64,000 bases of DNA from Nitrospirota bacterium. GTDB lineage: Bacteria; Nitrospirota; Nitrospiria; JACQBZ01. The position numbers were made by a program, and so were the translations under genes. The notes under the pieces are model-generated. The model saw only the letters and a program-made list of their open reading frames with translations. It searched no databases and was not told the origin of the DNA. Location of the stretch: positions 385 to 64,384 of the forward strand of contig JACQBZ010000035.1 in assembly GCA_016194285.1 (NCBI GenBank), written 5' to 3'. Positions 32,111 to 54,508 of this stretch are shown one piece after another. How positions within the stretch are numbered: position 1 is the first letter of the stretch; each line of letters starts with the position of its first letter.

Positions 32111-32131
32111 ACTCGCTCCGTTTCTTTAATC

Positions 32132-33530: not shown

Positions 33531-33536
33531 GGGTAT

Positions 33537-35882: not shown

Positions 35883-36232
35883 CCTGACGACTCGGAGAGT
35901 TCGACCTCGACCACATCCAGCTCGTTTCCGGAAATCAATTCGACGCCTGCATTTCCGCAGTTCGGACAGAGAACGACGTAACGGCCGGCCTCAAAGCCCG
36001 CACCGCACGCCGTGCACAGACAACGAACCGGGACCGTTTCGATCTTGAGCTTTGCCCCCTGAGCGGCTGTTCCTTCGGTGGCCATTTCAAAACAGAACGC
36101 AAGCGATTCGGGAACGATGCGGGTAAAATCGCCCAGCTTCAACGTCACGGATTTTACGCTTCTCACCTCCCCCGACGGAAGATGTTGTCGCACCGCTTCT
36201 ACGATACCCCGCGCGATCGAGAGCTCATGCAT
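35879..36232 (-). CDS. hypA: Hydrogenase nickel-insertion protein HypA
   Basis: MHELSIARGIVEAV start and CLCTACG...CPNCG zinc site. 117 aa. Confidence 0.9.
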   Translation of the reverse strand: MHELSIARGIVEAVRQHLPSGEVRSVKSVTLKLGDFTRIVPESLAFCFEMATEGTAAQGAKLKIETVPVRCLCTACGAGFEAGRYVVLCPNCGNAGVELISGNELDVVEVELSESSG

Positions 36233-36731
36233 GGGCGTCGACCTTCCGAACGGGTTTTACGCCCAGGGACTCAAGTTCCCCGACCGCGGCATCGACCACG
36301 CGCGGGAGGACGGCTCGGAGCACCGGGGTGAGATCCAGACCGATTTCACGGACCTCCTGCGGTTGAACGCCGAGAATCCGGGTGAGGGGAAGCCTCCCCA
36401 GGAACCGGGCCACCGACAGCAGTTCCGCGACGCCGACTTCGTGGGCCGAGAAAAAGGGCCCCCGACGCGCGGATAGCTCTTCGGGGGTGAGGTGGTAGAT
36501 CGTCCCCGGCGGTTGCTGTCCGGATACGGCATCGATGATCAAGAGATGCTCCGCCCCTTCGAATTCGGACAGGCAGCGAAGACCGGCCACGCCCCCGTCG
36601 ATCAGCCGGACGCGGGCTGGCAGGTCATAGGTCTCGGCCAGGGTCCGAACGGCCCAAACACCGATGCCGTCATCCTGCATCAGCGTATTGCCCACGCCCA
36701 GAACAACGATGGACGGAGGAGCGCCCGTCAT
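36225..36731 (-). CDS. Hydrogenase maturation endopeptidase (HyaD/HybD/HupD family)
   Basis: VVLGVGNTLMQDDGIGVWAV motif. Follows the cytochrome b subunit with an ATGA overlap. Confidence 0.88.
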   Translation of the reverse strand: MTGAPPSIVVLGVGNTLMQDDGIGVWAVRTLAETYDLPARVRLIDGGVAGLRCLSEFEGAEHLLIIDAVSGQQPPGTIYHLTPEELSARRGPFFSAHEVGVAELLSVARFLGRLPLTRILGVQPQEVREIGLDLTPVLRAVLPRVVDAAVGELESLGVKPVRKVDAHA

Positions 36732-37399
36732 TTGCCGGCGCCTCCCCGACTCTCATGGACCTTGTATTTGTAACCGGTGATCATGGAACGAACCGTATGA
36801 TCGCGATGAATCCAGGTGTACATTGTCGCCATATAGACATGGATCGAGACCGTCACGATGAAGATCCACATCCCGATAAAGTGCCAGATTCGCGTGTAGG
36901 ATTCGCCCCCGAGCAGGAGGTTCACCCAGCCGAAGGCCGCCTGGGCCGAGAAAAGTCCGAAGACCTTCCCGTGGTACAGCGCGAATCCGGTCGCGGCCAT
37001 AAAGAGGATCAGGAACACCCAGAAAAGGTAGGTCAGGGCCTGCATCGGATTGTAACGGCGGTATTTCTTGTGCGTATCCTTGAGAAACAGATAGTACAGC
37101 AGCACGTCGGGGATGTTTTTGATGTTTTTCAAAATGCCAAAGTCCCGCCAGTCCGAGTCGAATGTCGAATTAAAGGCCAGGTAGACGCGCACGACCAACC
37201 CCAGGATAAAAATATAGGCCGCCGCAAAATGAAAAAACCTCATCCAGGCCATGACCGCGATGCCACCCGGCTCGCCACCAGGCAAAAAAGGCCAATGGAT
37301 GTAAAATCCCGTGACGGTCAGGACGGCCAGGGCCAGGACACGGACCCAGTGGTCGATCCGATAGGTCAGGTTCCATTCATACACATACTCGCGCTTCAT
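36728..37399 (-). CDS. Ni/Fe-hydrogenase b-type cytochrome subunit
   Basis: Four TM helices with conserved His (RIDHWVR, FHFAAAYIF, HFIGMW). Start placed at MKREYVYEW, 12 nt after the large-subunit stop. Confidence 0.85.
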   Translation of the reverse strand: MKREYVYEWNLTYRIDHWVRVLALAVLTVTGFYIHWPFLPGGEPGGIAVMAWMRFFHFAAAYIFILGLVVRVYLAFNSTFDSDWRDFGILKNIKNIPDVLLYYLFLKDTHKKYRRYNPMQALTYLFWVFLILFMAATGFALYHGKVFGLFSAQAAFGWVNLLLGGESYTRIWHFIGMWIFIVTVSIHVYMATMYTWIHRDHTVRSMITGYKYKVHESRGGAGK

Positions 37400-37410
37400 G
37401 GATTGCCTCG

Positions 37411-39000
37411 CTACGAAACCCGGACCTTGTAGACCGCGTTGCTTTCCGGGTCGATCACATGGACGGTGCACGCCAAACAGGGGTCAAAGGAATGGGCCAC
37501 GCGTAAGAGTTCCAGCGGCCGCTTGGGATCGGCCACCGGCGTCCCGATGAGGGCCTGTTCAATGGGTCCTTTGACCCCTTTCGCATCGCGGGGCGAGATG
37601 TTCCAGCAGGTCGGGGTGATCACCTGATAGTTGGCCAGCCGCCCCCGCTCGATCTGATTCCAATGTCCCAACGCGCCCCGAGGGGCTTCCCACAAGCCCA
37701 CCCCCTGCGCCTTCTGCGGCAGCTCATACGGGGTAAAGGTCTCCTTCTTTCCGGCCTTGAGATTTTCCATAATTTCGTTGGACCATTCCACCATGGCATC
37801 CGCAATGATCTTGGTCTCCAGGGCCCGCGCGGCGATTCGTCCCACCACGGAACAGAGGACCTCCGGCTTATCGGCGACGCCGAGCTGGCCGAGCGTCTGG
37901 TCAATAAGCTTTTTCGCGCTGGGGTTGCCCTTGGAATAAGCCACAACCATCCGGGCCAGGGCCCCCGTCTCCATCGGCCGGTCCCCGTAGCGGGGCGCTT
38001 TGGCCCAGGTGTATTTCTTTTCGACGTCCCAGGTCGTGAATTCCGGCTCCGTCACGCCCGTGCTCGGATGCTCCGGCGGACCGTTCTTGTACCAGCCGTG
38101 GGCGACGTCTTCCGTGACGGTTTTTTGATCCACTTCTTGAGCCTTGAAGCTGCAGTCCATGACGATCCCGCTGGGCAGAAGCCGGTTTTTCGAATCGAAG
38201 CTCGGAGCGTCGAAAACGCCCCAGGCCAGAAAGTTTCGCGACCCCGCGCCGATGCCGGCGTAGTCGAGGTAATACGGGGCGATCGCCAGGACATCCGGGA
38301 TATAGACATGGTCGACCCAATGCCGGATTTCTTCCAGCCGCGGGATCAGGTTCGCCATGTCATCCAGTGTCGGGATATGGACCGAGCCGCCGGCCGGGGT
38401 CGTCATCGTCATCGGCATCCGGCCGCCGAAGATGGCCGAGATATGGGAGGCCTGGGCCTGCTTGTCCAGCGCCTCAAGGTAATGGGCCACCGCCAGCAGG
38501 TTCAGCTCGGGGGGAAGTTTGTAGGCGGGATGTCCCCAGTAGGCGTTTGCGAACGGACCGAGCTGGCCTCCCTCCACGGATCTTCGCACGCGGGCCTGGA
38601 CGTCTTTTAAATAATGCTCCTTCGTCTCGGCCTTGAGCGCCGAGACGACATCCACGAAATCGAGCGCGGCCAGATGATAGAACCACAGGATATGGGAATG
38701 GAGGAACTGGGCGCCCTCCACCATGTTGCGAACGAGTCGGCCCATTTCGGGAGGATGAATGCCAACCGCACTTTCCAGACAGAGGGCGGCCGCATGGGAA
38801 TGGGAGGTGGGGCAAACGCCGCAGATCCGCTGAGTGATGTGATAGGCATCGCGCGGATCACGGTCTTTCAGGACGATTTCAAACCCGCGGAAAAGGGTCC
38901 CGGAGGCCCAGGCGTCCTTGACCTTTCCCCCTTCCACTTCGACCTCGATGGCCAAGTGCCCCTCGATGCGGGTGATCGGATCAATGATGATACGACTCAT
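37411..39000 (-). CDS. [NiFe] uptake hydrogenase large subunit (group 1, membrane-bound)
   Basis: DPITRIEGH, QRICGVCPTSH and C-terminal DPCLACTVHV motifs. Paired with a Tat-signal small subunit and cytochrome b. Confidence 0.92.
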   Translation of the reverse strand: MSRIIIDPITRIEGHLAIEVEVEGGKVKDAWASGTLFRGFEIVLKDRDPRDAYHITQRICGVCPTSHSHAAALCLESAVGIHPPEMGRLVRNMVEGAQFLHSHILWFYHLAALDFVDVVSALKAETKEHYLKDVQARVRRSVEGGQLGPFANAYWGHPAYKLPPELNLLAVAHYLEALDKQAQASHISAIFGGRMPMTMTTPAGGSVHIPTLDDMANLIPRLEEIRHWVDHVYIPDVLAIAPYYLDYAGIGAGSRNFLAWGVFDAPSFDSKNRLLPSGIVMDCSFKAQEVDQKTVTEDVAHGWYKNGPPEHPSTGVTEPEFTTWDVEKKYTWAKAPRYGDRPMETGALARMVVAYSKGNPSAKKLIDQTLGQLGVADKPEVLCSVVGRIAARALETKIIADAMVEWSNEIMENLKAGKKETFTPYELPQKAQGVGLWEAPRGALGHWNQIERGRLANYQVITPTCWNISPRDAKGVKGPIEQALIGTPVADPKRPLELLRVAHSFDPCLACTVHVIDPESNAVYKVRVS

Positions 39001-39018
39001 GGTTTAGTCCTCCGTCTT

Positions 39019-39137
39019 TTAGGAGCTTGCGTCGCGCCTATCATCTGTGGGGGCCCGTGCGGCTCGCTATTGCGAATTCTCCGATGCCCCCACGCCCCGC
39101 GCTCGGTCTGGCAAAGCCAGAACCTCGCTTTCTCCCT
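39019..39137. repeat. Diverged, expanded copy of the ~90-nt repeat family in the small/large subunit spacer
   Basis: TAGGAGCTTGCGTCGCGCCTA and CTGGCAAAGCCAG hairpins plus a CCTCGCTTTCTCCCTC tail parallel TAGGGGCTCGCGTCGCCCC, CCGGCAAAGCCGG and CCTCCCCCTCTCGC of the full copies. Confidence 0.55.
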
Positions 39138-40355
39138 CTACTTCTTCTTTTTCGATTCGTCCGTTTCCTCTTCGGGCTTTTCCTCCTTAAACCGTCCTTT
39201 GGCGGCCGTGCCGATCGCATGGGCCGCGATGCCCACAGCCGTGGCTGCACCGGCAACGAGGCCGATTTTGTCGGCGCCCGCTTCCACCCCGCCGATTCCC
39301 GGGATCCAGACTTCCGGGAGTCTTTCGTAGAATCCGGCGAATTTGTCTACCCAGTAGGGCTCCGCACAGCCGATGCAGGGAGCCCCCGCCCCAATGCACC
39401 AGCTCACCCGGTCGTTATAGCGCATCTTCGAGCAGTTGGCGTACGTGTCCGGTCCTTTGCAGCCCACCTTGTAGAGGCAGTAGCCGAGTTCTTCTTCCTT
39501 GCTGCCGAACCGCTCCACGAACCGACCCGCATCGAAGTGGGCCCGGCGTTCGCACTGATCATGGATCGTCTGACCGTAAAAGATCTTCGGCCGTCCGTGG
39601 CTGTCCAGTTCCGGAAGTCGGTTATTAATCAGATAATCCGTAATGGTGGCGACGAGAATCCCTTCATTGACGGGGCAGAGATCGAGGTTGATGCATTCCA
39701 CCCCCAGCGCTTCGCGGACCCCTTTCAATCCGGCCGGGTTCGGATTGCCGGCGGGCACTCCGCCCCAGGTGGCGCAGCTTCCCACCGCAATAATCGCCTT
39801 GGCCTTCTGCGCGAACTCCTTGCCGATGTCGATCATGTCGCGACGGGCAACCATTCCATAGCCCCGCTTGGTCGGGATCGCCCCCTCGATGATCAGGATG
39901 TAGCCGCCCTGTTTCAAGGCCCGCTGCAAAATCTCCTCGGCCTGGTAGCCGGCCGCCGCCATAATCGTCTCGTTGAAGTCCAGGCTCAATGTTTCCAGTA
40001 TCAGCTGTGCGGCATTCGGATAGTTGGCCTTGATGAGCGCTTCGGTGCAGCCGGTGTCTGAAGCGAAGTTCAACCAGATCACCGACGGCCGTTGGGCCAT
40101 CGCAGCGACCAACGCCTCGGCGATTTTGGGAACCCACATCGACCCGAGACCGAGGAGAGCCGCCGCGGTCCCGCAGACCTTGAGAAAGTCCCGCCGACTG
40201 ACCCCAAGAATCACCGAAGGTTCATTCCCTTGGACATCGGGCTCCTGAATCACCGGTAATCGGACACCCTTCCGATGACTCATCCCTGCAATGAGAGGCG
40301 GTTCAACCTCTTGAATGATCGGCAACTCCAAAGATGGACCGATATTATTCTGCAT
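39138..40355 (-). CDS. [NiFe] uptake hydrogenase small subunit (Tat signal, C-terminal membrane anchor)
   Basis: SRRDFLK twin-arginine motif, WLNFASDTGCTEA, distal Cys clusters, C-terminal helix IGLVAGAATAVGIAAHAIG. GGAGGA upstream of ATG 40355. Confidence 0.9.
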   Translation of the reverse strand: MQNNIGPSLELPIIQEVEPPLIAGMSHRKGVRLPVIQEPDVQGNEPSVILGVSRRDFLKVCGTAAALLGLGSMWVPKIAEALVAAMAQRPSVIWLNFASDTGCTEALIKANYPNAAQLILETLSLDFNETIMAAAGYQAEEILQRALKQGGYILIIEGAIPTKRGYGMVARRDMIDIGKEFAQKAKAIIAVGSCATWGGVPAGNPNPAGLKGVREALGVECINLDLCPVNEGILVATITDYLINNRLPELDSHGRPKIFYGQTIHDQCERRAHFDAGRFVERFGSKEEELGYCLYKVGCKGPDTYANCSKMRYNDRVSWCIGAGAPCIGCAEPYWVDKFAGFYERLPEVWIPGIGGVEAGADKIGLVAGAATAVGIAAHAIGTAAKGRFKEEKPEEETDESKKKK

Positions 40356-40431: not shown

Positions 40432-40447
40432 TGCAATGCCTGTGCCA
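40432..40447 (-). promoter_or_regulatory. Sigma-54 promoter (TGGCAC-N5-TTGCA) for the uptake hydrogenase operon
   Basis: Minus-strand reading aTGGCACaggcaTTGCAct, with exact GG-N10-GC spacing. About 77 nt upstream of the small-subunit ATG. Confidence 0.8.
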
Positions 40448-40575: not shown

Positions 40576-40593
40576 TGTCTATAAAATTGGACA
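40576..40593. promoter_or_regulatory. Candidate enhancer-binding-protein site TGTCTA-N6-TGGACA
   Basis: One mismatch from the TGTCCA-N6-TGGACA palindrome. About 130 nt upstream of the sigma-54 promoter. Confidence 0.45.
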
Positions 40594-40644
40594 TGATTTT
40601 GTGAGAATTTGTCTCATAACCTGAATTTTCTGAGACTTAGGGTG

Positions 40645-40662
40645 CGTCCATGAAGATGGACA
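40645..40662. promoter_or_regulatory. Candidate enhancer-binding-protein site CGTCCA-TGAAGA-TGGACA
   Basis: Near-perfect 18-bp palindrome with the same half-sites and spacing as 51222-51239. About 200 nt upstream of the sigma-54 promoter. Confidence 0.5.
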
Positions 40663-44585: not shown

Positions 44586-44619
44586 GGCATCTCTCCAGTG
44601 ATAACGCTTGGAGGAGAAC

Positions 44620-45235: not shown

Positions 45236-45802
45236 TCAGGCCTGGGCCTCACGACCACGACGAGCTCGAATCATCTCGACGGTGCTCGCTTGCGGACCCT
45301 TCTCTCCTAATTCTTCAACAAACCGTACTTCTGTTCCAATCTTCATCCGGTCGAAGGCATCCTTCAGCACGCTGTTTCGATGAAAATAGATTTCCTGCCC
45401 GTCCGGCGCTTCGAGGAACCCGTACCCCTCCTGCGGAAACAGTTTGCTCACGCGGGCACGCGTTGCGGACTTGTGGTTTTTCACATCCCCACGAAGCCGA
45501 CGCTCATAATCCTCCAGCTGTCGACGGACTGCATCAAAGGCATCCCGAATCGCCACATAAATATCCTCATGGGGCTGGCGTTTGACCACCAGTTCGGAGC
45601 CCTGGACGGTCAGATCGATTTGCACTTTATACAGCACGCCTTGATGTTGATGTCGATGGGGACTGTCCACGGTCACACGACAGCCCATAATGTGATCGGA
45701 AAATTGATCCAGCTTGGACGCTTTCTCATGGATCTCGTTTTTAACCGCTTCTGAAACCGAGGCATTACGTACCGTAATCTGAAGTGGAAGTTTCATGGCC
45801 AT
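45236..45802 (-). CDS. HPF/RaiA-like ribosome-associated domain fused to a cold-shock (CSD) domain
   Basis: N-terminal LQITVRNASVSEAVKNEIHEKASKL..(HPF/YfiA-like). C-terminal GYGFLEAPDGQEIYFHRNSV (CSD RNP-like motif). Confidence 0.7.
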   Translation of the reverse strand: MAMKLPLQITVRNASVSEAVKNEIHEKASKLDQFSDHIMGCRVTVDSPHRHQHQGVLYKVQIDLTVQGSELVVKRQPHEDIYVAIRDAFDAVRRQLEDYERRLRGDVKNHKSATRARVSKLFPQEGYGFLEAPDGQEIYFHRNSVLKDAFDRMKIGTEVRFVEELGEKGPQASTVEMIRARRGREAQA

Positions 45803-45933
45803 TCTCCTTGATCCCGATGGTTCCGAACCTGCACGGCCAGTTGAACGCCTCCGACCCAGGAAACGATCACCGACTCTTTTTTAATTTCGACCGGTCTCGA
45901 CATGGAATCCTACCATTTCCGAGCGGGCTTATG

Positions 45934-46416
45934 TCAAGAGCCCTTCTCTTCTTTTTTACTGCCCAGCGCCTTCGGCTTTACCGTAAACACGGGACAGGCG
46001 GCCTTTCGCACGACCCGCTCGGCCACGCTCCCCATCAGGACATGCCCCAGCCCCGTGCGTCCATGCGTTCCGAGCACGATCAGATCGGCCGGGATCTCTC
46101 CCGCGGTTTTGAGAATTTCAAGGAACGGGGTTCCCTCTTTCAAAATGGCATGCACGTTCGGTCCCTGATGTCGGACACGATCCGCCAGTTTATTGAGCTT
46201 GTGATGCTCTTCTTCCTTGACCTCCTTGATCCATTGATGGATCTCCGGCCGGACGCCGGGAGACACACCCGTATGGCTGAAGAAGGGCGGCTCGAACACA
46301 TTAAGCAGATAAAGATCCGCCCCGAAGCCCCGGGCCAACTGCACGGCGTACTCTAATGCTTCATTGGAATAATCCGAAAAATCGGTCGCCATCAAGATCC
46401 GATGCAACGTGATCAT
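45934..46416 (-). CDS. Universal stress protein (UspA family)
   Basis: ILMATDFSDYS...DLIVLGTHGRTGLGHVLMGSVAERVVRKAACPVF. Confidence 0.88.
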   Translation of the reverse strand: MITLHRILMATDFSDYSNEALEYAVQLARGFGADLYLLNVFEPPFFSHTGVSPGVRPEIHQWIKEVKEEEHHKLNKLADRVRHQGPNVHAILKEGTPFLEILKTAGEIPADLIVLGTHGRTGLGHVLMGSVAERVVRKAACPVFTVKPKALGSKKEEKGS

Positions 46417-46459
46417 CTCTTATCCCCCCTTTGCCTTTCTATTCGATTTTGGAACGGGA

Positions 46460-49162
46460 TCAGGCCGGACGCCTGCTCCACTCCCGAAAACGCAGCCACT
46501 TCTCTCCCTCCACAGCCAGATAGACCGTCAAGGCCACCCCCACGCACAAGACCAGTTCCCCCATCGTCAAGGCCGTGGTATGAAAAACCGGCTGAAGGAG
46601 GGGGCTATAGGTGATGGCCAGTTGAAGGATCACGATCACGAACACCGCGCTGATCAGCTTTCGGTTTGAAAAAAAACCGATCGTCCACAGTGCATTCCGT
46701 TCGGAGCGCATGGCCAGCACGCTGAACATCTGAAAAATCGTGAGGACGAAAAAAGCCGCCGTCTGGCCATGACCGAGACCCTGCTTCGCCTGGGCCCATC
46801 CGAAAATACCGATGGTTCCCAACCCCATGACCAGACCCACCCAGACAACCTGCAGGCCCAGACCCTCGGCAAACAGGCTCGCCTTCGCATCCCTCGGCGG
46901 TCTCTTCATCACATCCCGCTCGGCCGGTTCCACGCCCAAGGCCAGGGCCGGAAGTCCGTCCGTCATCAGGTTGATCCAGAGAATTTGGACCGGGAGCAGC
47001 GGAAGCGGCAGGCCGAACAGGATCGCGAAAAACATGGTCATGATCTCGCCGCTGTTCGTGGACAGCATATATCGGGTGAATTTCCGGATGTTGTCGTAGA
47101 TGATCCGCCCCTCTCTCACGGCCCAAACGATCGTGGCGAAGTTGTCATCCAACAGCACGATGTCGGAGGCCTCCCGAGCCACGTCCGTGCCCCCCCTTCC
47201 CATTGCCACGCCGATATCGGCCATCCGCAGCGCCGGAGCGTCATTCACGCCGTCCCCCGTCATGGCCACGATTCCCCCCCTCCGTTTGAGGGCCTGGACG
47301 ATCTTCACTTTCTGCTCGGGCGAGACCCGGGCATAGACGGAAACATTCGGGATCAACGGCGCGAGTTCATCCAGAGACATGGACTCCAGATCCTCGCCGG
47401 TTAAGATGCGATCCTTCGGACCCCGGATCTTCAAGTGGGTCGCGATCGCTTCGGCCGTCATCCGATGATCCCCCGTAATCATCACCGGTCGAATCCCGGC
47501 CTCCCGGCAATTCGCCACGGCCGCCTCGACCTCCGGCCTTGGAGGATCCATCATCCCGACCAGGCCCAGGAAGACCGTCTCTTCCTCCACATCCTTTAAG
47601 CCCTCCTCGGAGGGTACGATTTCAAGGCCTCGCATCGCGCAGGCCAAAATACGGACCCCATCCGCGGCCAGCTCCCGGTGGATCTGCATAATTTTGTCAT
47701 GATGATGACGAGTCAGCGGCATGAGAGTCCCTCCTTCCGTCACCCAAACGGCTCGCCGGAGGATTTCTTCAACGCTGCCTTTGCTGAAGGCCCATAGTCG
47801 TCCCGACGGATCCTGGTGGACCGTCGTCATGAGCTTTCGATTCGAGTCAAAAGGTCTCTCGGCGATTCGCGGATATTCCGCTTCAAGCCGGTCCTTCCAG
47901 AAACCGGCCTTTGCGGCCGCCGCAAGCAGGGCCCCCTCCGTCGGATCTCCCAAAATGGTCCAGCGGTTCTCCTGCTGCTCCAGACGGGCGTTGGTGCAAA
48001 GGGCGGCCGCACGGAGCAGTTGAAGAAGCGCCGGTACGTTCTTTGGATCCAACCGTGCTCCTTTTTCATGAAAATTCCCCTCCGGTGCGTAACCGCTCCC
48101 GGTGATATTCACCAACCGTCCTTCGAAGTAGACGATTTCGACCGACATGACATTCTGGGTGAGGGTCCCGGTCTTGTCGGAGCAGATCGTGGTGACGGAA
48201 CCCAGCGTCTCCACGGCCGGCAGTTTTCGGATCAGCGCATTGCGGCGGACCATCGCCTGGGCACCGATCGCCAGAACGATGGTCACCACCGCCGGAAGTC
48301 CCTCCGGAATCACCGCCACGGCGAGGCTGATCGCCGTCAAAAGCATCGTCTCCGTCGGCTCGCCCCGAACGAGACCGGCGATGAAAATCACCCCCGTCAT
48401 GGCCACGGCCGCGCCGGCCAGCCATTTTCCAAGATAGGCCAAACGGAGTTGTAGCGGCGTCTTGGGTTCTTCGATCGTCTGGAGGAGGCGGGCGATCTTT
48501 CCGAGCTCGGTCTCCATCCCCGTCTCGGTGACCACGGCCCACGCATGGCCGGCGACGACCGATGTTCCCATAAAGACCATGTTGAGCCGATCACCCAAGG
48601 AGAGATCTTTTTTGTGGAGCGTTCGGGGGTGTTTGACGACGGACGCGGCTTCCCCGCTCAATTGCGACTCGTTCAGCCGCAATTGGACCGCTTCGATGAG
48701 CCTCCCGTCGGCCGGAATCCGCTGGCCTTCGTTCAGGGCCATGAGATCCCCCGGGACGAGTTCCTGGGATGGAATCTCCGCGAATTTTCCTTCCCGCCGA
48801 ACCACCACGTGGAGCCGCTCAAGCTTCTTTAAGGCGCCCAGGGCCCGCTCGGCGCGGTACTCCTGAGCAAATCCCAGAGAGGCGTTCAGCCCCACGATGA
48901 CCAGAATCATCACGGCATCGGTAAAATCCCCCATCCAACCGGCGATCCCGGCGGCCGCAAGCAGAATCAGGATCATCACGTCCTTAAACTGCCTGGAGAG
49001 GATGGGCCAGAGGGTCCTTCGCTCTTCCTCCCTTAAGAGATTGGGGCCGTGCTGTCTTAACCGCCGTTCCGCTTCGCGAACGGAAAGCCCCTCTTGTCGA
49101 GAACTCTCCAATACCCGAAGAACCTCCTCGGCATCCATCTGGAACCACGGTCGGGCCATCAA
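46460..49162 (-). CDS. Cation-transporting P-type ATPase, type IIA (SERCA/PacL-like, probably Ca2+)
   Basis: [47 protein letters not shown]. 900 aa. Confidence 0.88.
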   Translation of the reverse strand: MMARPWFQMDAEEVLRVLESSRQEGLSVREAERRLRQHGPNLLREEERRTLWPILSRQFKDVMILILLAAAGIAGWMGDFTDAVMILVIVGLNASLGFAQEYRAERALGALKKLERLHVVVRREGKFAEIPSQELVPGDLMALNEGQRIPADGRLIEAVQLRLNESQLSGEAASVVKHPRTLHKKDLSLGDRLNMVFMGTSVVAGHAWAVVTETGMETELGKIARLLQTIEEPKTPLQLRLAYLGKWLAGAAVAMTGVIFIAGLVRGEPTETMLLTAISLAVAVIPEGLPAVVTIVLAIGAQAMVRRNALIRKLPAVETLGSVTTICSDKTGTLTQNVMSVEIVYFEGRLVNITGSGYAPEGNFHEKGARLDPKNVPALLQLLRAAALCTNARLEQQENRWTILGDPTEGALLAAAAKAGFWKDRLEAEYPRIAERPFDSNRKLMTTVHQDPSGRLWAFSKGSVEEILRRAVWVTEGGTLMPLTRHHHDKIMQIHRELAADGVRILACAMRGLEIVPSEEGLKDVEEETVFLGLVGMMDPPRPEVEAAVANCREAGIRPVMITGDHRMTAEAIATHLKIRGPKDRILTGEDLESMSLDELAPLIPNVSVYARVSPEQKVKIVQALKRRGGIVAMTGDGVNDAPALRMADIGVAMGRGGTDVAREASDIVLLDDNFATIVWAVREGRIIYDNIRKFTRYMLSTNSGEIMTMFFAILFGLPLPLLPVQILWINLMTDGLPALALGVEPAERDVMKRPPRDAKASLFAEGLGLQVVWVGLVMGLGTIGIFGWAQAKQGLGHGQTAAFFVLTIFQMFSVLAMRSERNALWTIGFFSNRKLISAVFVIVILQLAITYSPLLQPVFHTTALTMGELVLCVGVALTVYLAVEGEKWLRFREWSRRPA

Positions 49163-49369
49163 TCAGCGCTTTCCTCTCGCTTTCCCGACGGAGACCGTCT
49201 CAAGTTCTCTGGCCTCCTTGCGGTTCAGGAGGATAAGGGAATCGACAATTTCCCCGCAATAGACGCACCGCCAACCCTCATAAGACCAGGGTGCCCCTTC
49301 GCACGCCACATTGACGAACTCCTCAAAATTCATCTGCCCGCCGCATTTCGGACATTTCATCTTCATCAT
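49163..49369 (-). CDS. Small zinc-ribbon protein (68 aa), abuts the ATPase start codon
   Basis: CPKCGG...CVYCGE. Its stop codon is immediately followed by the ATPase ATG (0-nt spacer). Confidence 0.55.
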   Translation of the reverse strand: MMKMKCPKCGGQMNFEEFVNVACEGAPWSYEGWRCVYCGEIVDSLILLNRKEARELETVSVGKARGKR

Positions 49370-49392
49370 CTCCTTTCTCCCGAGGATCGTCT

Positions 49393-49482
49393 TATAGGGG
49401 CTCGCGTCGCCCCCTCCACTGGCGAAGCCGGATGGAGCCTCCCCCTCTCGCTCGCCGTGCTCGCTGGGTCAATGCCATGGGC
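49393..49482 (+). repeat. ~90-nt hairpin-rich intergenic repeat, copy A
   Basis: TATAGGGGCTCGCGTCGCCCCCTCCACTGGCGAAGCCGGATGGAGCCTCCCCCTCTCGCTCGCCGTGCTCGCTGGG.. Near-identical to copies at 49995-50085 and 61774-61866. Confidence 0.85.
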
Positions 49483-49484
49483 AT

Positions 49485-49973
49485 CTACTCTACCTTGATC
49501 TTCACTTCTTTCCGCTTGGCTTCCTCCGTCTTAGGCAACCGCACTTCCAACACGCCGTCCTTAAAATTGGCATACGCTTTGTCGACCTGCACCTCTTTGG
49601 GCAGGTCAATCGTCCGCACAAAACTCCCGTAGGAGCGCTCGGAATAGTAATACCCTTTCTTTTTCACTTCCTCTTCCTGTTTCTTTTCGCCCTTGATGGT
49701 GAGAAGACTGCCGGAGATGTTGATATCCAAATCCTCCTTTTTCATACCGGGAATCTCGGCCTTGACCACGACGTCGTCTTTTTCTTCGTAAACCTCGATC
49801 GCCGGTTCACGGAGCCCGATTTCCCGAAAGCGTTCCGGCCAGCTTAAACCCCATAAGGGCCTGCGGAAGAAATCGCCGAACAGTTGCTCTGCCTCCCGCT
49901 CCACTCGACTCAACTCCGAGAAAGGTTTCCAGGGTGTCACCTCCCGCGTTTGTTTCTCTTTTTCCTTGGCCAT
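49485..49973 (-). CDS. Hsp20/alpha-crystallin small heat-shock protein
   Basis: PAIEVYEEKDDVVVKAEIPGMKKEDLDI...GVLEVRLPK alpha-crystallin domain. Confidence 0.9.
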   Translation of the reverse strand: MAKEKEKQTREVTPWKPFSELSRVEREAEQLFGDFFRRPLWGLSWPERFREIGLREPAIEVYEEKDDVVVKAEIPGMKKEDLDINISGSLLTIKGEKKQEEEVKKKGYYYSERSYGSFVRTIDLPKEVQVDKAYANFKDGVLEVRLPKTEEAKRKEVKIKVE

Positions 49974-49994
49974 GGCTAAACCTCCTTTCTTTTT

Positions 49995-50085
49995 TATAGG
50001 GGCTCACGTCGCCCCCTCCACCGGCAAAGCCGGATGGAGCCTCCCCCTCTCGCTCGCCTGGCTCGCTGGGCAAATCCCAACGGGC
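49995..50085 (+). repeat. ~90-nt hairpin-rich intergenic repeat, copy B
   Basis: TATAGGGGCTCACGTCGCCCCCTCCACCGGCAAAGCCGGATGGAGCCTCCCCCTCTCGCTCGCCTGGCTCGCTGGG.. Same orientation as copy A. Together the two copies bracket hsp20. Confidence 0.85.
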
Positions 50086-50107
50086 AACAGGAGCCAGAGG
50101 ACCCCAG

Positions 50108-50584
50108 TCATCGATGCCATTTCACCCGGATGAATTTATCATCCCGCGACCAGTTATACGTGACATCACCTTTATAGGCCCGCTGGATCTCCATCCCGAT
50201 CCGTTGGGCAAACCGATCGCTGGTCGTCTGGATCTCCACTGATTTTAAGTTATCTTTGATCGAAATGATGCGATCGAGAGGATTGATCCTCTTGGCCCGA
50301 GCTTCCTCATTTCGAACCAGGTGGAGAATCTGCTCCTTATTGGGCACTAAGAACTCTCCGCTCAACGTGATAATCCCGCCCGGGAAAGAATCATGTCCCT
50401 TCTGACAGGCCGGGCAGATCGCGGAACGAACCGTACGGCCTTTCACCAAAGCCGGAAGGCTTTCCATGGACCAGCGCTTGTGATGATAAACCGCCCCGCA
50501 AGTTGGGCAGACGGCCACTTCCTTCGGCCCCATCAGCGGCAGGTAAGGATCACGATGGACCGCGAGATTTTTTCGAATCGGCAA
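50108..50584 (-). CDS. Zinc-ribbon protein of unknown function (two CxxC pairs)
   Basis: HRDPYLPL..VAVCPTCGAVYHHKRW...CPACQK. Start is uncertain: TTG 50584 lies 5 nt after GGAGG, while the track ORF extends to 50704 inside the CBS gene. Confidence 0.6.
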   Translation of the reverse strand: MPIRKNLAVHRDPYLPLMGPKEVAVCPTCGAVYHHKRWSMESLPALVKGRTVRSAICPACQKGHDSFPGGIITLSGEFLVPNKEQILHLVRNEEARAKRINPLDRIISIKDNLKSVEIQTTSDRFAQRIGMEIQRAYKGDVTYNWSRDDKFIRVKWHR

Positions 50585-50606
50585 CACCGCCTCCGCTTGA
50601 AGCCCC

Positions 50607-51044
50607 TTAAGGCCAGTATTCGGCCGTGGACTTGATATAGCCGAAGAGGATGTCCCGCCGCGCGACAATGCCCACCAGTTTTCCATCCCGGACAACCGGC
50701 ACACGGATCAGATGATCGGCCTCCAACAACCGGATAATCTCATCCACCGGGGTGTCTTCACGGACAAACTTCACCTCCCGCGACATGATCTCCTCGGCCC
50801 GGATGTCCTTCAGGTCCCGACTCTTTATGAGAACATCCAGCAGATCAAATTCGCTAATCAACCCCAGCAGCATCCCCTTGTCATCCACCACCGGCAGACT
50901 TCCAAAATTGAATTTGGTCAGCTGGGATGCGACGTGGCGGGCCGAATCGGAGAGCCTGCAGAATTTCACGTCCTCCTCCATTAAGAGAGAGGCCGTGAGC
51001 TTATGGAAATCACGCTTTTCGGTTAAATATTCTGAGCGTCTCAT
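50607..51044 (-). CDS. CBS-domain pair protein
   Basis: Two CBS repeats (..FGSLPVVDDKGMLLGLISEFDLL.. and ..LIRVPVVRDGKLVGIVARRDIL..). Confidence 0.85.
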   Translation of the reverse strand: MRRSEYLTEKRDFHKLTASLLMEEDVKFCRLSDSARHVASQLTKFNFGSLPVVDDKGMLLGLISEFDLLDVLIKSRDLKDIRAEEIMSREVKFVREDTPVDEIIRLLEADHLIRVPVVRDGKLVGIVARRDILFGYIKSTAEYWP

Positions 51045-51095
51045 GGCAAATCCTCCTTTTTTTTCCCCTCATATCCTTCCCTATTATCATAATAA

Positions 51096-51110
51096 GCAAA
51101 GGCCATGCCA
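51096..51110 (-). promoter_or_regulatory. Sigma-54 promoter (TGGCAT-N5-TTGCT) upstream of the CBS/stress operon
   Basis: Minus-strand aaTGGCATggcctTTGCTt with correct GG-N10-GC spacing. About 52 nt upstream of ATG 51044. Confidence 0.7.
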
Positions 51111-51221
51111 TTCGTGGATAGAAACTGAATAGAACAAATTCGGCGGACCTCTTTATAAATCGAGGGTTAGACGGACATCGACGAAGCACGGCAGAAAGTC
51201 AGATTCAATGAAAAGAGGAAA

Positions 51222-51239
51222 TGTCCAATGACCTGGACA
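51222..51239. promoter_or_regulatory. Candidate enhancer-binding-protein site, perfect palindrome TGTCCA-ATGACC-TGGACA
   Basis: Read directly. About 115 nt upstream of the sigma-54 promoter. Same half-sites and spacing as 40645-40662. Confidence 0.5.
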
Positions 51240-51289
51240 GGAAAAAGCTCGTATGATTTTTTTTCATCGGGTTTTCAAAGGAGTTCTGA

Positions 51290-51307
51290 TGTCAAGGAGA
51301 ATGGACA
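51290..51307. promoter_or_regulatory. Candidate enhancer-binding-protein site TGTCAA-GGAGAA-TGGACA
   Basis: One mismatch from the palindrome. Second site upstream of the same promoter. Confidence 0.4.
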
Positions 51308-51335
51308 TTTGTCTATACAACGATGGGGGGGGCGG

Positions 51336-52712
51336 TTATTCGATGAGGTTGTAGCGCTTCAATTTATTGTAGAGAGTGGCCCGACTGATTCCCAAAAGTT
51401 TGGCCGCCCGGGACCGGTTCCCCTTCGCCTTCAGGGTGGCCTCCGTAATTTTTTCTTTCTCAACCGTTTCGGTGGCCGTTCGGATGACTTTGTATAACGC
51501 ATCGTCCGGCTGCTCGACCGATGGTTCCATGAAGAGGGCCTCCGCAGCGATCTCCGTGGCGGGATTCATCAACACCGCACGCTCGATCACATTTTCAAGC
51601 TCTCTCACATTCCCCGGCCATGGAGACTCGACTAAAAGTCTCAGGGCTTTCGGTGAGATTCGCTTGGGTTCGAGGCGATTCCGTTCGCAATACTTCTTGA
51701 TGAAGTGGTCCGCCAAAAGGGGGATATCCTCTCTCCGTTGTCGCAGGGGCGGAATCACGATCGGAACGACGGCCAGGCGATAGTAAAGATCCTCCCGGAA
51801 GGACTTCTTCTCGACGCTTTTTTTGAGATCTTTGTTGGTCGCGGCGATAACGCGGACGTCGACTTTAATGGTCTTGTTGCCTCCCACCGGCCGGATTTCA
51901 TTTTCCTGCAAGACCCGCAACAACTTCGACTGGAACGCCGGAGTGGTATCACCGATCTCGTCCAACAAGAGCGTCCCTCCATCGGCTTCTTCGAAAAGTC
52001 CCTTTTTATTGCTGACGGCTCCGGTAAAAGACCCCCGCACGTGACCGAACAACTCGCTCTCCAACAAGGTTTCGGGAAGGGCTCCGCAGTCGATCGCGAC
52101 GAACGGTCGCTCCCGTCTCGGACTTTGCTGATGGATCGCTCGCGCGAACAGCTCCTTGCCGGTCCCGGACTCTCCGTAGATCAGAATCGTGGTATGGCTG
52201 TTCGCCACCCGCTCGATCAGGCGAAAGAGATCCTGCATCGGCTTGCTCCGACCGATGATGTTGCCCAAGGCGCCCTCGACCCCGACTTTTTCCCGTAACC
52301 GTTCCACCTCCCGGGTCAGCCGATGCAGGTCCAGGGCCTTTTTCACCGTCAACGTGATCTCATCGTTGTTGATCGGCTTGGTCAGATAATCGTAGGCCCC
52401 TGCCTTCATCGCGGCCACGGCCGAATCAATCGTTCCATGCGCCGTGAGCACGATGCAGGGCAAGGTCGGTCTCATGCTTTTCACTTTCTTTAACAGCTCC
52501 AGGCCGCTCAATCCGGGCATCTTAAGGTCGGATATGATAAGATCAAACCACCCCGTTTCCAACTTCTTGATCGCCTCTTCTCCCGAAAAGGCGGTCACCA
52601 CGTCGTAGCCCCCTTTCCCAAGGACCTTTTTGAAGAGGCCGAGCATGTTGGGCTCATCATCGACCACCAGAATCCGATCGGACGTATTTTGGTCAGGAGC
52701 TGACGGACTCAT
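51336..52712 (-). CDS. Sigma-54-dependent response regulator (NtrC family: REC + AAA+ + Fis-type HTH)
   Basis: ILVVDDEPN..D..DLKMPG receiver. GESGTGKE Walker A. GSFTGA (GAFTGA variant). C-terminal AAKLLGISRATLYNKLKRY. Confidence 0.9.
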   Translation of the reverse strand: MSPSAPDQNTSDRILVVDDEPNMLGLFKKVLGKGGYDVVTAFSGEEAIKKLETGWFDLIISDLKMPGLSGLELLKKVKSMRPTLPCIVLTAHGTIDSAVAAMKAGAYDYLTKPINNDEITLTVKKALDLHRLTREVERLREKVGVEGALGNIIGRSKPMQDLFRLIERVANSHTTILIYGESGTGKELFARAIHQQSPRRERPFVAIDCGALPETLLESELFGHVRGSFTGAVSNKKGLFEEADGGTLLLDEIGDTTPAFQSKLLRVLQENEIRPVGGNKTIKVDVRVIAATNKDLKKSVEKKSFREDLYYRLAVVPIVIPPLRQRREDIPLLADHFIKKYCERNRLEPKRISPKALRLLVESPWPGNVRELENVIERAVLMNPATEIAAEALFMEPSVEQPDDALYKVIRTATETVEKEKITEATLKAKGNRSRAAKLLGISRATLYNKLKRYNLIE

Positions 52713-53958
52713 CGCGCGGACTTCTCCTTCGGTCTACCGGCAAATGAAGGTAAAACGTGGTCCCCCGGCCCGGGACGGTCTCGGCCGAGATCCGTCCTCC
52801 GTGGGCCTCCATAATGCTCTTGCAGATCGAGAGCCCGAGCCCCATCCCCTTTTTGCTCTTGGTCGTGAAGAACGGATGGAATATTTTGGACAGATGGTCC
52901 GGATCAATCCCCTGGCCGGTGTCGGTCACGGTGATGATCACTTCGTCCCCATCCGTCCGGCTGGCAGGCCCTCCGGCCAAACTGTCTTCCTGATCCTCGA
53001 TAGACGAAGTCGGTTTGGCCGTCAAGCTAACCGTCAAGGTTCCCCCGTCCGGCATCGCCTCGATCGCGTTGAAAAAGAGATTCACCAGCACCTGCCCCAC
53101 TTGCTGCGGATCCACCCAAATCTTCGGAAGCCCGTTCCGATCCTGAATCACGGGCCGAATGTTGGCCTTATGGAAACGGGGCGTGAGCAGATCGATGCTC
53201 TTCCGGATCATCTCCATCGGATCCATCTGTGTAAACTGCGGAGTGGCTTGACGGCCGAAATCCAAAAGGTCCTGCATGATTTTTTTGCAGCGCCGGGCCT
53301 CCTCTTCAATGATCTTCACGGACTGATACCGGGGATCCGTCGGATCCACCTCCGTCAGCAGATCCTGAGCGAACCCGATCACGATGCCCAGCGGGTTGTT
53401 GAACTCATGGGCAAGGGAGGCCGTCATCTCGCCAAAGGAGATCAGCCGCTCCGAGAGAATCAGTTGCCGCTCCTGATCCTGGGCCAGATCGCGGAATCGC
53501 CGTTCGCTTTCCCGAAGCGCTTCCTCCATCCGTTTGCGGTCGGTGATGTTCTGGATGAGGGCGGTGACGAAGATCTGTTCCCGCACGCTCACGGGGCTTA
53601 AGCTGATCTCGACGGGAATCTCGGTTCCATCCTTACGACGGCCGGTCAACTCAAGGCCGATGCCCATTGGCCGTGTGGTCAGGTGGGAAATATAATTAGC
53701 GCGATGGCCGCTGTGACGCTCTCGCAAATGTTCGGGCACCAAGGTTTCAACGAACCGGCCAAGCAGTTCATTCCGGTTGTAACCGAAGATCTTCTCGGTC
53801 TGCTCATTGATGAATAAAATGTGCCCCTCCCGGTTGATGATGACCACGGCATACGGAAGCGCCTCCATGACAGACATGAATAGCTCGTCCTTCAAAACAA
53901 GCGCTTCAACCGGTTGGGCTGATCCTTCGTCTAAACGATCCTGTTCCGAATGCGACAT
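52693..53958 (-). CDS. PAS-domain sensor histidine kinase
   Basis: PAS-like N-terminus, SLAHEFNNPL H-box, N/G boxes (NLFFNAIEAM, DTGQGI, GMGLGLSI). Confidence 0.88.
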   Translation of the reverse strand: MSHSEQDRLDEGSAQPVEALVLKDELFMSVMEALPYAVVIINREGHILFINEQTEKIFGYNRNELLGRFVETLVPEHLRERHSGHRANYISHLTTRPMGIGLELTGRRKDGTEIPVEISLSPVSVREQIFVTALIQNITDRKRMEEALRESERRFRDLAQDQERQLILSERLISFGEMTASLAHEFNNPLGIVIGFAQDLLTEVDPTDPRYQSVKIIEEEARRCKKIMQDLLDFGRQATPQFTQMDPMEMIRKSIDLLTPRFHKANIRPVIQDRNGLPKIWVDPQQVGQVLVNLFFNAIEAMPDGGTLTVSLTAKPTSSIEDQEDSLAGGPASRTDGDEVIITVTDTGQGIDPDHLSKIFHPFFTTKSKKGMGLGLSICKSIMEAHGGRISAETVPGRGTTFYLHLPVDRRRSPRDESVSS

Positions 53959-54058: not shown

Positions 54059-54427
54059 CTAGGGAGGGAGAAGATGTTCCCGAACCGTTTCTTTCAATAC
54101 GTCAATATCAATGGGTTTGACAAGATATTCCACGGCGCCCTTCAGAAAGGCCATCGCCCGCGTTTGATCGCCCGGATAAGTCGAGAGCATGACGACCTTG
54201 GTACCCGGCTCGAGATTTTTGACCCGATCCAGAATCGAAAAACCATCGATCGGACGCATCCGAATATCCACGAACACGAGATCAAACGGCTCCTCTTCAT
54301 GCCATCTCAGGGCCTGGTTCCCGTCGGTTGTTGTTCTAACTTCGTAACCCTCCTTTCCAAGGACTTTAGATAGAAGGCCAAGAAAATTCTCTTCGTCATC
54401 AATGACCAGGATTCTGGGATAACTCAT
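54059..54427 (-). CDS. Single-domain response regulator (CheY-like receiver)
   Basis: ILVIDDEENF...DLVFVDIRMRPIDG...KP. 122 aa. Confidence 0.88.
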   Translation of the reverse strand: MSYPRILVIDDEENFLGLLSKVLGKEGYEVRTTTDGNQALRWHEEEPFDLVFVDIRMRPIDGFSILDRVKNLEPGTKVVMLSTYPGDQTRAMAFLKGAVEYLVKPIDIDVLKETVREHLLPP

Positions 54428-54493
54428 TTTTTAACACTCGTTTCCAACGGCACGAAAATTCGACATGATGACCCACTGCTACTTCTATTACAA

Positions 54494-54508
54494 GCAAGAT
54501 ACGTGCCA
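54494..54508 (-). promoter_or_regulatory. Sigma-54 promoter (TGGCAC-N5-TTGCT) upstream of the receiver/kinase/activator operon
   Basis: Minus-strand aTGGCACgtatcTTGCTtg. About 67 nt upstream of ATG 54427. Confidence 0.75.

What the first reader, a model, noticed from the sequence alone, without database searches (positions are those of the whole stretch)
51096..51307. Second sigma-54 promoter with the same TGTCCA-N6-TGGACA sites implies a shared regulon with the hydrogenase
- TGGCAT-ggcct-TTGCT lies about 52 nt upstream of the CBS gene.
- A perfect palindrome TGTCCAatgaccTGGACA (51222-51239) and a one-mismatch copy (51290-51307) lie upstream of it.
- These sites sit directly downstream of the NtrC-family activator gene (51336-52712).
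- The parsimonious reading is that this PAS-kinase/activator pair controls both the adjacent stress operon and the distant hydrogenase (and, by read-through, possibly the cytochrome conduit).
Basis: inference. Interest (0 to 1): 0.6.

Follow-up and report, generated by a model that had tools for sequence, protein, structure and literature searches.

The report
Sigma-54 hibernation-plus-hydrogenase regulon in Nitrospirota
The promoter and paired palindromes are real and mark a small, conserved set of operons (stress/hibernation genes, an H2-uptake hydrogenase and a phosphoribosyltransferase) that an adjacent two-component activator very probably switches on together in uncultured groundwater Nitrospirota.

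Summary
Observation confirmed. On the minus strand, TGGCATggcctTTGCT (51110-51095) lies about 50 nt before the CBS gene. TGTCCA-N6-TGGACA palindromes lie at 51222-51239 (perfect) and 51290-51307 (one mismatch), 29 nt after the NtrC-family activator gene.

- Of 33 sigma-54-like promoters in the 2.31-Mb assembly, only three carry such palindromes: this one, the hydrogenase promoter (40432-40662) and a third on contig C14 before a phosphoribosyltransferase gene.
- All three have two sites 68-69 bp apart, with the proximal one 128-147 bp from the promoter.
- The layout recurs at 24 promoters in eight related genomes, before CBS, BCAM0308-family, Hsp20, HPF-CSD, phosphoribosyltransferase, hydrogenase and giant multicopper-oxidase genes. 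It occurs only where the activator's orthologue exists.
- The orthologues share an invariant recognition helix (LLGISRATLYNK). No other activator in this genome has it.

The site core, TGTC-N10-GACA, equals the E. coli GlrR consensus, but the protein is not a GlrR orthologue.

The kinase's PAS domain most resembles haem O2 sensors (FixL, DosP). The gene set mirrors the DosR and lxa hypoxia regulons. An O2/redox signal is therefore inferred, not shown.

The mechanism is textbook and the regulon is new.

The parts
51095..51110 (-). Sigma-54 (-24/-12) promoter of the stress/hibernation operon: TGGCATggcctTTGCT.
   Evidence: Conserved in G001, G002, G003 and G007. rpoN is present in the genome.
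51222..51239 (.). Proximal activator site (UAS-P), TGTCCAatgaccTGGACA. Its centre is 128 bp from the promoter centre.
   Evidence: Half-sites are conserved and the spacer varies in orthologous promoters.
51290..51307 (.). Distal activator site (UAS-D), TGTCAAggagaaTGGACA, 68 bp from UAS-P.
51310..51315 (.). Extra conserved half-site TGTCTA, 2 nt beyond UAS-D. The minus strand reads TAGACA-AA-TGTCCA.
   Evidence: Alignment (conserved in G000-G003, weaker in G007). Role unknown.
51271..51279 (-). Conserved TTTGAAAAC box between the two sites. A GAAAAY box sits 22-24 nt from the distal site centre in all three promoters of this genome.
   Evidence: Not found in families f5 and f8. Function unknown (a bend or an accessory factor is possible).
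51151..51164 (-). Conserved A/T-rich block (minus strand CTCGATTTATAAAG) between UAS-P and the promoter. Candidate DNA-bending (IHF-type) site.
   Evidence: Alignment. No convincing match to the IHF consensus, so this is inference only.
51336..52712 (-). NtrC-family response regulator/activator (REC + AAA+ sigma-54 domain with GSFTGA + Fis-type HTH). Recognition helix LLGISRATLYNK.
52693..53958 (-). Cytoplasmic PAS histidine kinase. It overlaps the activator's start by 20 nt. The PAS domain resembles haem-PAS O2 sensors; the putative proximal His is H82.
54059..54427 (-). Single-domain receiver protein, first gene of the regulatory operon.
   Evidence: The order REC-kinase-activator is conserved in relatives.
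54493..54508 (-). Third sigma-54 promoter, TGGCACgtatcTTGCT, before the regulatory operon. It has no TGTC-N10-GACA site upstream.
45236..51044 (-). Target operon: CBS pair, BCAM0308-family protein, Hsp20, P-type (Ca-type, IIA) ATPase, Usp, HPF fused to a cold-shock domain.
   Evidence: Synteny is kept in G001, G003 and G007.
40432..40447 (-). Consensus sigma-54 promoter, TGGCACaggcaTTGCA, of the [NiFe] uptake hydrogenase operon.
   Evidence: Conserved in G002, G003, G014 and G022.
40576..40593 (.). Hydrogenase UAS-P, TGTCTAtaaaatTGGACA. Its centre is 145 bp from the promoter centre.
40645..40662 (.). Hydrogenase UAS-D, CGTCCAtgaagaTGGACA, 69 bp from UAS-P.
31043..40355 (-). Target operon: hydrogenase small and large subunits, cytochrome b, maturation protease, HypA/F/C/D/E. 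It continues without gaps into the porin-cytochrome genes.

Best explanation
The two palindromes are the upstream activator sequences of the NtrC-family response regulator encoded just upstream (51336-52712).

Proposed mechanism:
1. The co-transcribed PAS histidine kinase (52693-53958) phosphorylates the regulator.
2. Regulator dimers bind the TGTCyA-N6-TrGACA sites. There are two per promoter, 68-69 bp apart, with the proximal one 128-147 bp from the promoter.
3. The dimers assemble into the active AAA+ ring, contact sigma-54 RNA polymerase by DNA looping, and open the -24/-12 promoter.

The same protein drives three promoters in this genome:
- the CBS / BCAM0308 / Hsp20 / P-type ATPase / Usp / HPF-CSD operon;
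- the [NiFe] uptake-hydrogenase-hyp operon, probably extending into the porin-cytochrome conduit;
- a phosphoribosyltransferase gene on contig C14.

Together they form a small hibernation-plus-H2-energy regulon.

What is shown: the sequence elements, their conservation, and their co-occurrence with the regulator.

What is inferred: binding, activation, and the signal. I take the signal to be O2 or redox state sensed by a FixL-like, possibly haem-binding, PAS domain. I give that about 45%, with the direction unknown.
For: (1) Specificity within the genome. Of 33 near-consensus sigma-54 promoters, exactly three have palindromes upstream, each with two. The six sites are the top non-coding hits of a position weight matrix.

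(2) Stereotyped architecture. At 24 promoters in 8 genomes of 3 families, the proximal centre lies at about -117 to -159, mostly near -128 or -145. Where two sites are found, the distal site is mostly 68±1 bp further upstream (extremes 57 and 94).

(3) Phylogenetic footprinting. Half-sites are conserved while the 6-nt spacers and flanks diverge.

(4) Co-occurrence with the regulator.
- Phosphoribosyltransferase or BCAM0308 upstream regions carry sites in 10 of the 13 regions tested in genomes with the orthologue, and in none of the 7 regions from genomes without it.
- Perfect sites number 1-4 per genome with the orthologue, against 0, 0, 1, 1, 0 without.
- Among 80 activator loci from many phyla, only the 4 orthologues have the helix GISRATLYNK. 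Only those 4 have a perfect palindrome nearby.

(5) The recognition helix is invariant across orthologues and unique among the 12 activators of this genome.

(6) The sites begin 29 nt after the regulator's stop codon in family f1, and overlap its 3' end in families f5 and f8.

(7) Hydrogenase orthologues were found only in genomes with the regulator: 5 of 41 genomes searched.

(8) Signal. All 14 best PDB matches of the PAS domain are haem-PAS O2 sensors or close kin, with E about 1e-16. The proximal His is conserved. The target genes match the hypoxia-induced lxa and DosR sets (PMC3721108).
Against: - There is no binding, transcript or expression evidence.
- The distal O2-binding Arg of FixL (R220) and of DosP (R97) is Leu here, so haem or O2 sensing is uncertain.
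- Orthologous kinases in other families carry a different, Cys-rich PAS domain.
- A 68-bp gap (about 6.5 helical turns) between dimer sites is unusual for ring assembly. It may need an unidentified bending factor.
- The regulatory operon's own sigma-54 promoter lacks the sites, so another activator must exist in the circuit.
- The assembly is 88.6% complete, so the regulon may be larger.
Confidence: 0.8

Rival explanations
1. The palindromes are bound by a different protein: another of the 12 sigma-54 activators, or a sigma-70-type repressor/activator. The neighbouring activator would act elsewhere.
For: - No binding data exist.
- One paralogue (contig C5) has a similar helix, GISRKHLYNK.
- TGTC-N10-GACA is also used by E. 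coli GlrR, so the core is not unique to one protein.
Against: - The sites co-occur with this orthologue group and abut its gene across three families.
- They are missing in genomes without the orthologue, although paralogous activators are present in all of them.
- The C5 paralogue differs at two recognition-helix positions and has its own promoter downstream.
Confidence: 0.08
2. The regulator is a HoxA/HupR-type hydrogen-responsive activator, and the signal is H2 rather than O2 or redox.
For: NtrC-family activators with PAS kinases control uptake hydrogenases in Cupriavidus and Rhodobacter (established knowledge). Sigma-54 control of NiFe hydrogenases in Proteobacteria is noted in PMC12316311.
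Against: - Only one [NiFe] small-subunit gene was found in the assembly, so no regulatory H2-sensing hydrogenase partner is seen.
- G001, 98% complete, keeps the regulator, its sites and the stress and phosphoribosyltransferase targets, but no hydrogenase was found there.
- The core targets across families are hibernation genes, not hydrogenase.
Confidence: 0.07
3. The palindromes are RNA hairpins: weak intrinsic terminators of the upstream activator and NAPRTase genes. They are not protein-binding sites.
For: - The scan flags 51239-51222 as terminator-like, with a 7-bp stem and a T-rich tail. Its predicted energy is -8.4 kcal/mol.
- Both window pairs lie just after a co-directional gene.
Against: - The other three hairpins are weak (-2.3 to -7.2 kcal/mol) and lack U tails.
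- The C14 pair lies in a divergent intergenic region with no upstream co-directional gene.
- The half-site sequence is conserved, rather than maintained by compensatory changes.
- The fixed distance is to a sigma-54 promoter, not to a stop codon.
Confidence: 0.03

Closest known systems
GlrK/GlrR (QseE/QseF) with the glmY sigma-54 promoter, E. coli
   Same: - REC-AAA+-HTH activator.
- Several TGTC-N10-GACA sites more than 100 bp upstream of a -24/-12 promoter (PMC3045617; sites read).
- Two of the glmY sites are 64 bp apart, comparable with 68 bp here.
   Different: - 45% identity, the same as to any paralogue. The NCBIfam GlrR score is 437.6, below the 763 cut-off.
- The recognition helix differs.
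- The inner half-site bases differ (CGACA against GGACA/AGACA).
- The kinase is a soluble PAS protein, not a membrane protein with a QseG lipoprotein.
- The targets are hibernation and hydrogenase genes, not a small RNA.
DosS/DosT-DosR dormancy regulon of mycobacteria and the lxa locus of Burkholderia cenocepacia
   Same: - Gene content: Usp, alpha-crystallin/Hsp20, cation P-type ATPase (PMC3721108); CBS protein, HPF-type ribosome hibernation factor and phosphoribosyltransferases (my knowledge of the DosR regulon).
- The 50108-50704 product passes the NCBIfam lxa_BCAM0308 model (151 bits, cut-off 100).
- Gene clusters homologous to DosR-regulated genes, and hydrogenases, are induced by hypoxia in M. 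smegmatis (PMC2799521).
   Different: The regulators are unrelated. DosR is a NarL-type regulator at sigma-70-type promoters. The lxa locus is controlled through an Anr/Fnr-like TGA-N6-TCA motif. Here the control is an NtrC-type activator at sigma-54 promoters with remote paired sites.
HoxJ/HoxA and HupT/HupR control of uptake hydrogenases
   Same: An NtrC-family response regulator and a soluble PAS kinase control a membrane-bound [NiFe] uptake hydrogenase. HoxA acts at a sigma-54 promoter (established knowledge).
   Different: - No regulatory hydrogenase was found.
- The regulon is centred on hibernation genes.
- The site differs: from memory, HupR uses TTG-N5-CAA.
FixL/FixJ and DosP haem-PAS oxygen sensors
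   Same: The kinase's PAS domain gives its best solved-structure matches to the FixL and DosP haem domains, with E about 1e-16. The proximal histidine is aligned and conserved.
   Different: - The NCBIfam FixL score is 190.6, below the 850 cut-off.
- The distal Arg that binds O2 is Leu.
- The partner regulator is an NtrC type, not a FixJ type.

Membership tests
Sigma-54 promoter | GG and GC dinucleotides 10 bp apart within TGGCAC-N5-TTGCW, upstream of a gene, in a genome that encodes RpoN. | tested here: met
   One mismatch at 51110-51095, perfect at 40447-40432 and at 54508-54493. rpoN lies on contig C35. The promoters are conserved in relatives.
NtrC-family (group I) bacterial enhancer-binding protein | N-terminal receiver domain, central AAA+ sigma-54 interaction domain with a GAFTGA loop, C-terminal Fis-type HTH. 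| tested here: met
   Pfam Response_reg 111 bits, Sigma54_activat 247 bits, HTH_8 51.5 bits. The sequence shows GESGTGKE, GSFTGA and DEIGD.
NtrC proper (nitrogen regulator NR-I) | Passes the equivalog model TIGR01818. | tested here: not met
   458.9 bits against a cut-off of 558.6. The match also stops at residue 395, so the DNA-binding domain is not covered.
GlrR/QseF | Passes the equivalog model NF011695. Partnered with the membrane kinase GlrK and the lipoprotein QseG. | tested here: not met
   437.6 bits against a cut-off of 763. The partner is a soluble PAS kinase. Only the TGTC-N10-GACA core is shared.
HoxA/HupR hydrogen-sensing system | A regulatory [NiFe] hydrogenase (HoxBC/HupUV) partnered with the kinase. 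| tested here: not met
   Only one small-subunit gene was found in the assembly. The assembly is 88.6% complete, so absence is not proven.
FixL-type haem-PAS sensor kinase | Proximal haem-ligand histidine in the PAS F-alpha helix. | tested here: met
   H82 aligns with the FixL proximal His and with the DosP His. It is conserved in the four f1 orthologues.
FixL-type haem-PAS sensor kinase | Distal arginine that contacts bound O2 (BjFixL R220, DosP R97), and a pass on the equivalog model. | tested here: not met
   Leu102 occupies that position. NF041777 scores 190.6 against a cut-off of 850. Haem binding itself cannot be tested with these tools.
lxa/DosR-type hypoxia-dormancy gene set | Co-regulated Usp, Hsp20/alpha-crystallin, cation ATPase, BCAM0308-type and related genes. 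| tested here: met
   Pfam and NCBIfam assignments. The gene list of the lxa locus is in PMC3721108.
lxa/DosR-type hypoxia-dormancy gene set | Induction by low oxygen through DosR or an Anr/Fnr-type regulator. | not testable with these tools
   No expression data were available. The regulator here belongs to a different family, so this is an analogue and not a member.

The most novel reading that the evidence does not exclude
These uncultured Nitrospirota have a DosR-like dormancy programme rebuilt on sigma-54. A haem- or Fe-S-PAS kinase senses O2 or redox state. Through one NtrC-type activator it switches on ribosome hibernation and proteostasis genes. The same signal switches on an H2-uptake hydrogenase wired to an extracellular electron conduit. 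H2-to-mineral electron flow would then be the maintenance energy source of the dormant state.
Probability: 0.35. Interest if true: 0.65.

Novelty: new member of a known kind. Interest (0 to 1): 0.45.

Why it matters
- It gives a concrete, testable regulatory link between persistence functions and H2-driven energy conservation in a groundwater lineage that has no cultured member. The persistence functions are ribosome hibernation, a small heat-shock protein, Usp and a CBS protein.
- It supplies a precise cis-element and a recognition helix. Both can be used to predict this regulon in metagenomes.
- It shows that the dormancy gene set known from DosR (mycobacteria) and lxa (Burkholderia) has been placed under a third, unrelated control logic.
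- The strictly conserved 68-bp spacing of the two dimer sites is also an unusual case for studying how enhancer-binding-protein rings assemble.

Tried and rejected
- **Second activator next to the hydrogenase promoter.** Rejected: 40721-42094 is a nicotinate phosphoribosyltransferase and 42132-44744 is a Lon-like protease.
- **Autoregulation through the same sites.** No TGTC-N10-GACA site lies within 400 bp upstream of the 54508-54493 promoter. An alignment of eight orthologous regions shows only the promoter and the hflX coding start conserved.
- **IHF sites.** I read the conserved blocks by eye against WATCAANNNNTTR and found no convincing match. They are reported as conserved blocks only.
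- **Terminator reading.** Folded and rejected.
- **Further targets in this genome.** All other high-scoring matrix hits lie inside long open frames.
- **Earlier scan notes by keywords.** Nothing found.
- **Literature.** Searches for a described sigma-54 regulon of this composition, or in Nitrospira, found none in the held library. This does not prove that none exists.

Full report
**1. What is in the sequence**

All relevant genes lie on the minus strand.
- The minus strand reads TGGCATGGCCTTTGCT at 51110-51095. This is one mismatch from the sigma-54 consensus TGGCAC-N5-TTGCW. It ends 50 nt before the ATG of a CBS-pair gene (50607-51044).
- Upstream lie TGTCCAatgaccTGGACA (51222-51239, a perfect inverted repeat) and TGTCAAggagaaTGGACA (51290-51307, one mismatch).
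- The distal site is 29 nt from the stop codon of 51336-52712. That gene encodes a REC + sigma-54-AAA+ + Fis-HTH protein.

**2. Gene content**

Behind the promoter come these genes:
- the CBS protein;
- a protein that passes the NCBIfam model lxa_BCAM0308 (50108-50704);
- Hsp20;
- a type IIA P-type ATPase;
- Usp;
- an HPF ribosome-hibernation domain fused to a cold-shock domain.

Upstream of the activator lie a soluble PAS histidine kinase (52693-53958, overlapping the activator by 20 nt) and a single-domain receiver (54059-54427). This regulatory operon has its own consensus sigma-54 promoter at 54508-54493.

The gene beside the hydrogenase promoter is a nicotinate phosphoribosyltransferase, preceded by a Lon-like protease. 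It is not a second activator.

The hydrogenase operon comprises the small and large subunits, cytochrome b, the maturation protease and HypA/F/C/D/E. It runs without gaps into multihaem cytochrome genes. An earlier follow-up of this scan read those as a porin-cytochrome conduit.

**3. More than chance, and a third target**

- The window holds 9 matches at up to 2 mismatches, against 1.87 expected.
- The whole assembly (2.31 Mb, 102 contigs, 88.6% complete) holds 10 sites at up to 1 mismatch. Five of them lie in three places.
- A position weight matrix built from orthologous sites ranks six sites at the top among non-coding DNA: the two pairs in the window, and a pair on contig C14 at 36369 and 36437.
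- The C14 pair is 68 bp apart. It lies upstream of TGGCATggtcaTTGCA (C14:36585) and a phosphoribosyltransferase gene (C14:36670-37329), which is followed by a small FmdB-type zinc-ribbon gene.
- Of 33 near-consensus sigma-54 promoters in the genome, only these three have such sites upstream.
- Every other high-scoring hit lies inside an open frame of at least 200 codons.
- rpoN is present.

**4. Conservation**

The organism is an uncultured groundwater Nitrospirota (Nitrospiria) bacterium.

Clear orthologues of the activator (55-84% identity, against about 50% for paralogues) occur in 13 of 40 relatives. They keep the receiver-kinase-activator order.

In the same family (G001, G002, G003, G007), three features are conserved while the 6-nt spacers and flanks diverge:
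- the stress operon;
- its sigma-54 promoter;
- two palindromes 66-68 bp apart.

Hydrogenase orthologues were found in only four relatives, all of which have the activator.
- Three show the two sites plus the promoter.
- The fourth contig ends too early to tell.

The phosphoribosyltransferase promoter has the same layout in G001, G002, G003 and G007.

In two other families, the gene after the activator is a 1,385-1,636-residue secreted multicopper oxidase behind the same sites and a sigma-54 promoter. Further pairs there precede BCAM0308-family, CBS and Hsp20 + HPF-CSD genes.

Across 24 promoters in eight genomes:
- the proximal site centre lies between about -117 and -159, mostly near -128 or near -145 from the promoter centre;
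- where two sites are found, the distal site is mostly 68±1 bp further upstream (extremes 57 and 94).

**5. Link to this particular activator**

- In genomes without the orthologue, none of 7 phosphoribosyltransferase or BCAM0308 upstream regions has a site or a sigma-54 promoter.
- Perfect TGTCYA-N6-TRGACA sites number 1-4 per genome with the orthologue, against 0, 0, 1, 1, 0 without. The reversed-pattern control gives 0.
- The recognition helix LLGISRATLYNK is invariant in the orthologues down to about 67% identity (one Thr-to-Ser change in the 58% group). It is found in none of the other 11 activators of this genome.
- Among 80 activator loci from many phyla, only the four orthologues have this helix. 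Only those four have a perfect palindrome within 3 kb.
- This is strong comparative evidence that the protein binds these sites. It is not a binding experiment.

**6. Mechanism**

- The standard model for this family applies. Phosphorylated dimers bind remote sites, form the ATPase ring, loop to sigma-54 holoenzyme and open the promoter.
- The fixed 68-bp spacing, about 6.5 helical turns, is unusual. It suggests a bent or wrapped intervening segment.
- A conserved GAAAAY box lies 22-24 nt from the distal site in all three promoters of this genome. A conserved A/T block lies between the proximal site and the promoter. Neither matches the IHF consensus convincingly.

**7. Signal**

- The 14 best solved-structure matches of the PAS domain are the haem domains of FixL and DosP, plus one uncharacterised kinase, with E about 1e-16.
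- The proximal His aligns with H82 and is conserved in the family. The distal O2-binding Arg is Leu.
- Orthologous kinases in the other families have a different, four-cysteine PAS domain. That hints at a metal or Fe-S sensor.
- The target set matches the hypoxia-induced lxa locus and the DosR regulon. Gene clusters homologous to DosR-regulated genes are induced by hypoxia in M. smegmatis.
- I therefore favour an O2/redox signal at about 45%, with the direction unknown. An O2-dependent multicopper oxidase among the targets in other families leaves either direction open.

**8. Comparison with known systems**

- The site core TGTC-N10-GACA is the published GlrR consensus. I read the three glmY sites directly.
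- The protein is only 45% identical to GlrR and has a different recognition helix.
- It fails the NCBIfam cut-offs for GlrR, NtrC, AtoC and ZraR.
- HoxA/HupR-type H2 sensing is unlikely, because no second hydrogenase was found. G001 also keeps the regulator and its other targets although no hydrogenase was found there.
- A terminator reading fits only one of the four window hairpins and cannot apply on C14.

**9. Verdict**

This is a real, well-defined and conserved sigma-54 regulon. The mechanism is textbook. The composition (hibernation genes plus an uptake hydrogenase, probably with an electron conduit) and the lineage are new.

Nothing has been tested experimentally.

Noticed in passing
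window 54493-54508 (-): A consensus sigma-54 promoter before the receiver-kinase-activator operon. It is conserved in eight genomes of three families but has no TGTC-N10-GACA site. The only other conserved sequence upstream is the start of the divergent hflX gene (ATG at 54631, + strand). A different, unidentified activator must feed into the circuit.
   Followed up: partly
contig C14:36369-37329 of the same genome (outside the window): Third member of the regulon: two palindromes 68 bp apart, TGGCATggtcaTTGCA, then a 219-aa phosphoribosyltransferase and a small FmdB-type zinc-ribbon gene. The region is divergent from a 1,163-codon open frame (32733-36224) that I read by eye as dnaE.
   Followed up: yes
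L005-L010 (G014, G022, G011, G019, G031, G036), just downstream of the activator orthologue: In two other Nitrospirota families, the gene directly after the activator is a secreted giant multicopper oxidase of 1,385-1,636 residues. Where the promoter was resolved, it sits behind the same paired sites and a sigma-54 promoter. Its substrate is unknown (metal oxidation is possible).
   Followed up: partly
L005, L007, L008, L010 (kinase genes): Orthologous kinases in families f5 and f8 replace the FixL-like PAS segment with one carrying four conserved cysteines (C-x10-C-x2-C ... C). This could be a metal or Fe-S redox sensor feeding the same activator.
   Followed up: no
window 45236-45802 (-); also L122 and L123: HPF (ribosome hibernation factor) fused to a C-terminal cold-shock domain. 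The fusion is conserved in several Nitrospirota families and is always in this regulon.
   Followed up: partly
window 45110-45139 (-): A near-consensus sigma-70-type promoter (TTGACA-18-TATTAT, 11 of 12) lies between the HPF-CSD gene and the Lon-like protease gene. Lon and NAPRTase therefore probably have their own promoter and are not part of the sigma-54 operon.
   Followed up: no
G032, G039, G034, G012, G009, G027, G008, G004, G022, G017 (38 coordinates): The phosphoribosyltransferase and BCAM0308-family genes are adjacent in many Nitrospirota genomes, with or without the activator. They look like a functional pair of unknown role that is common to hypoxia-type islands.
   Followed up: no
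24 promoters listed: There are two main distance classes. Sites at about -128/-196 mostly go with a TTGCT -12 element (stress, BCAM0308 and CBS promoters). Sites at about -145/-213 mostly go with TTGCA (hydrogenase, phosphoribosyltransferase and Hsp20 promoters). The 17-bp difference is unexplained.
   Followed up: partly
contig C5:10393-11877: A paralogous activator has a similar recognition helix (GISRKHLYNK) and its own sigma-54-like promoter (TGGCATgagttTTGCT at C5:11862) about 110 nt after its gene. It may be a sister system with a related site.
   Followed up: no
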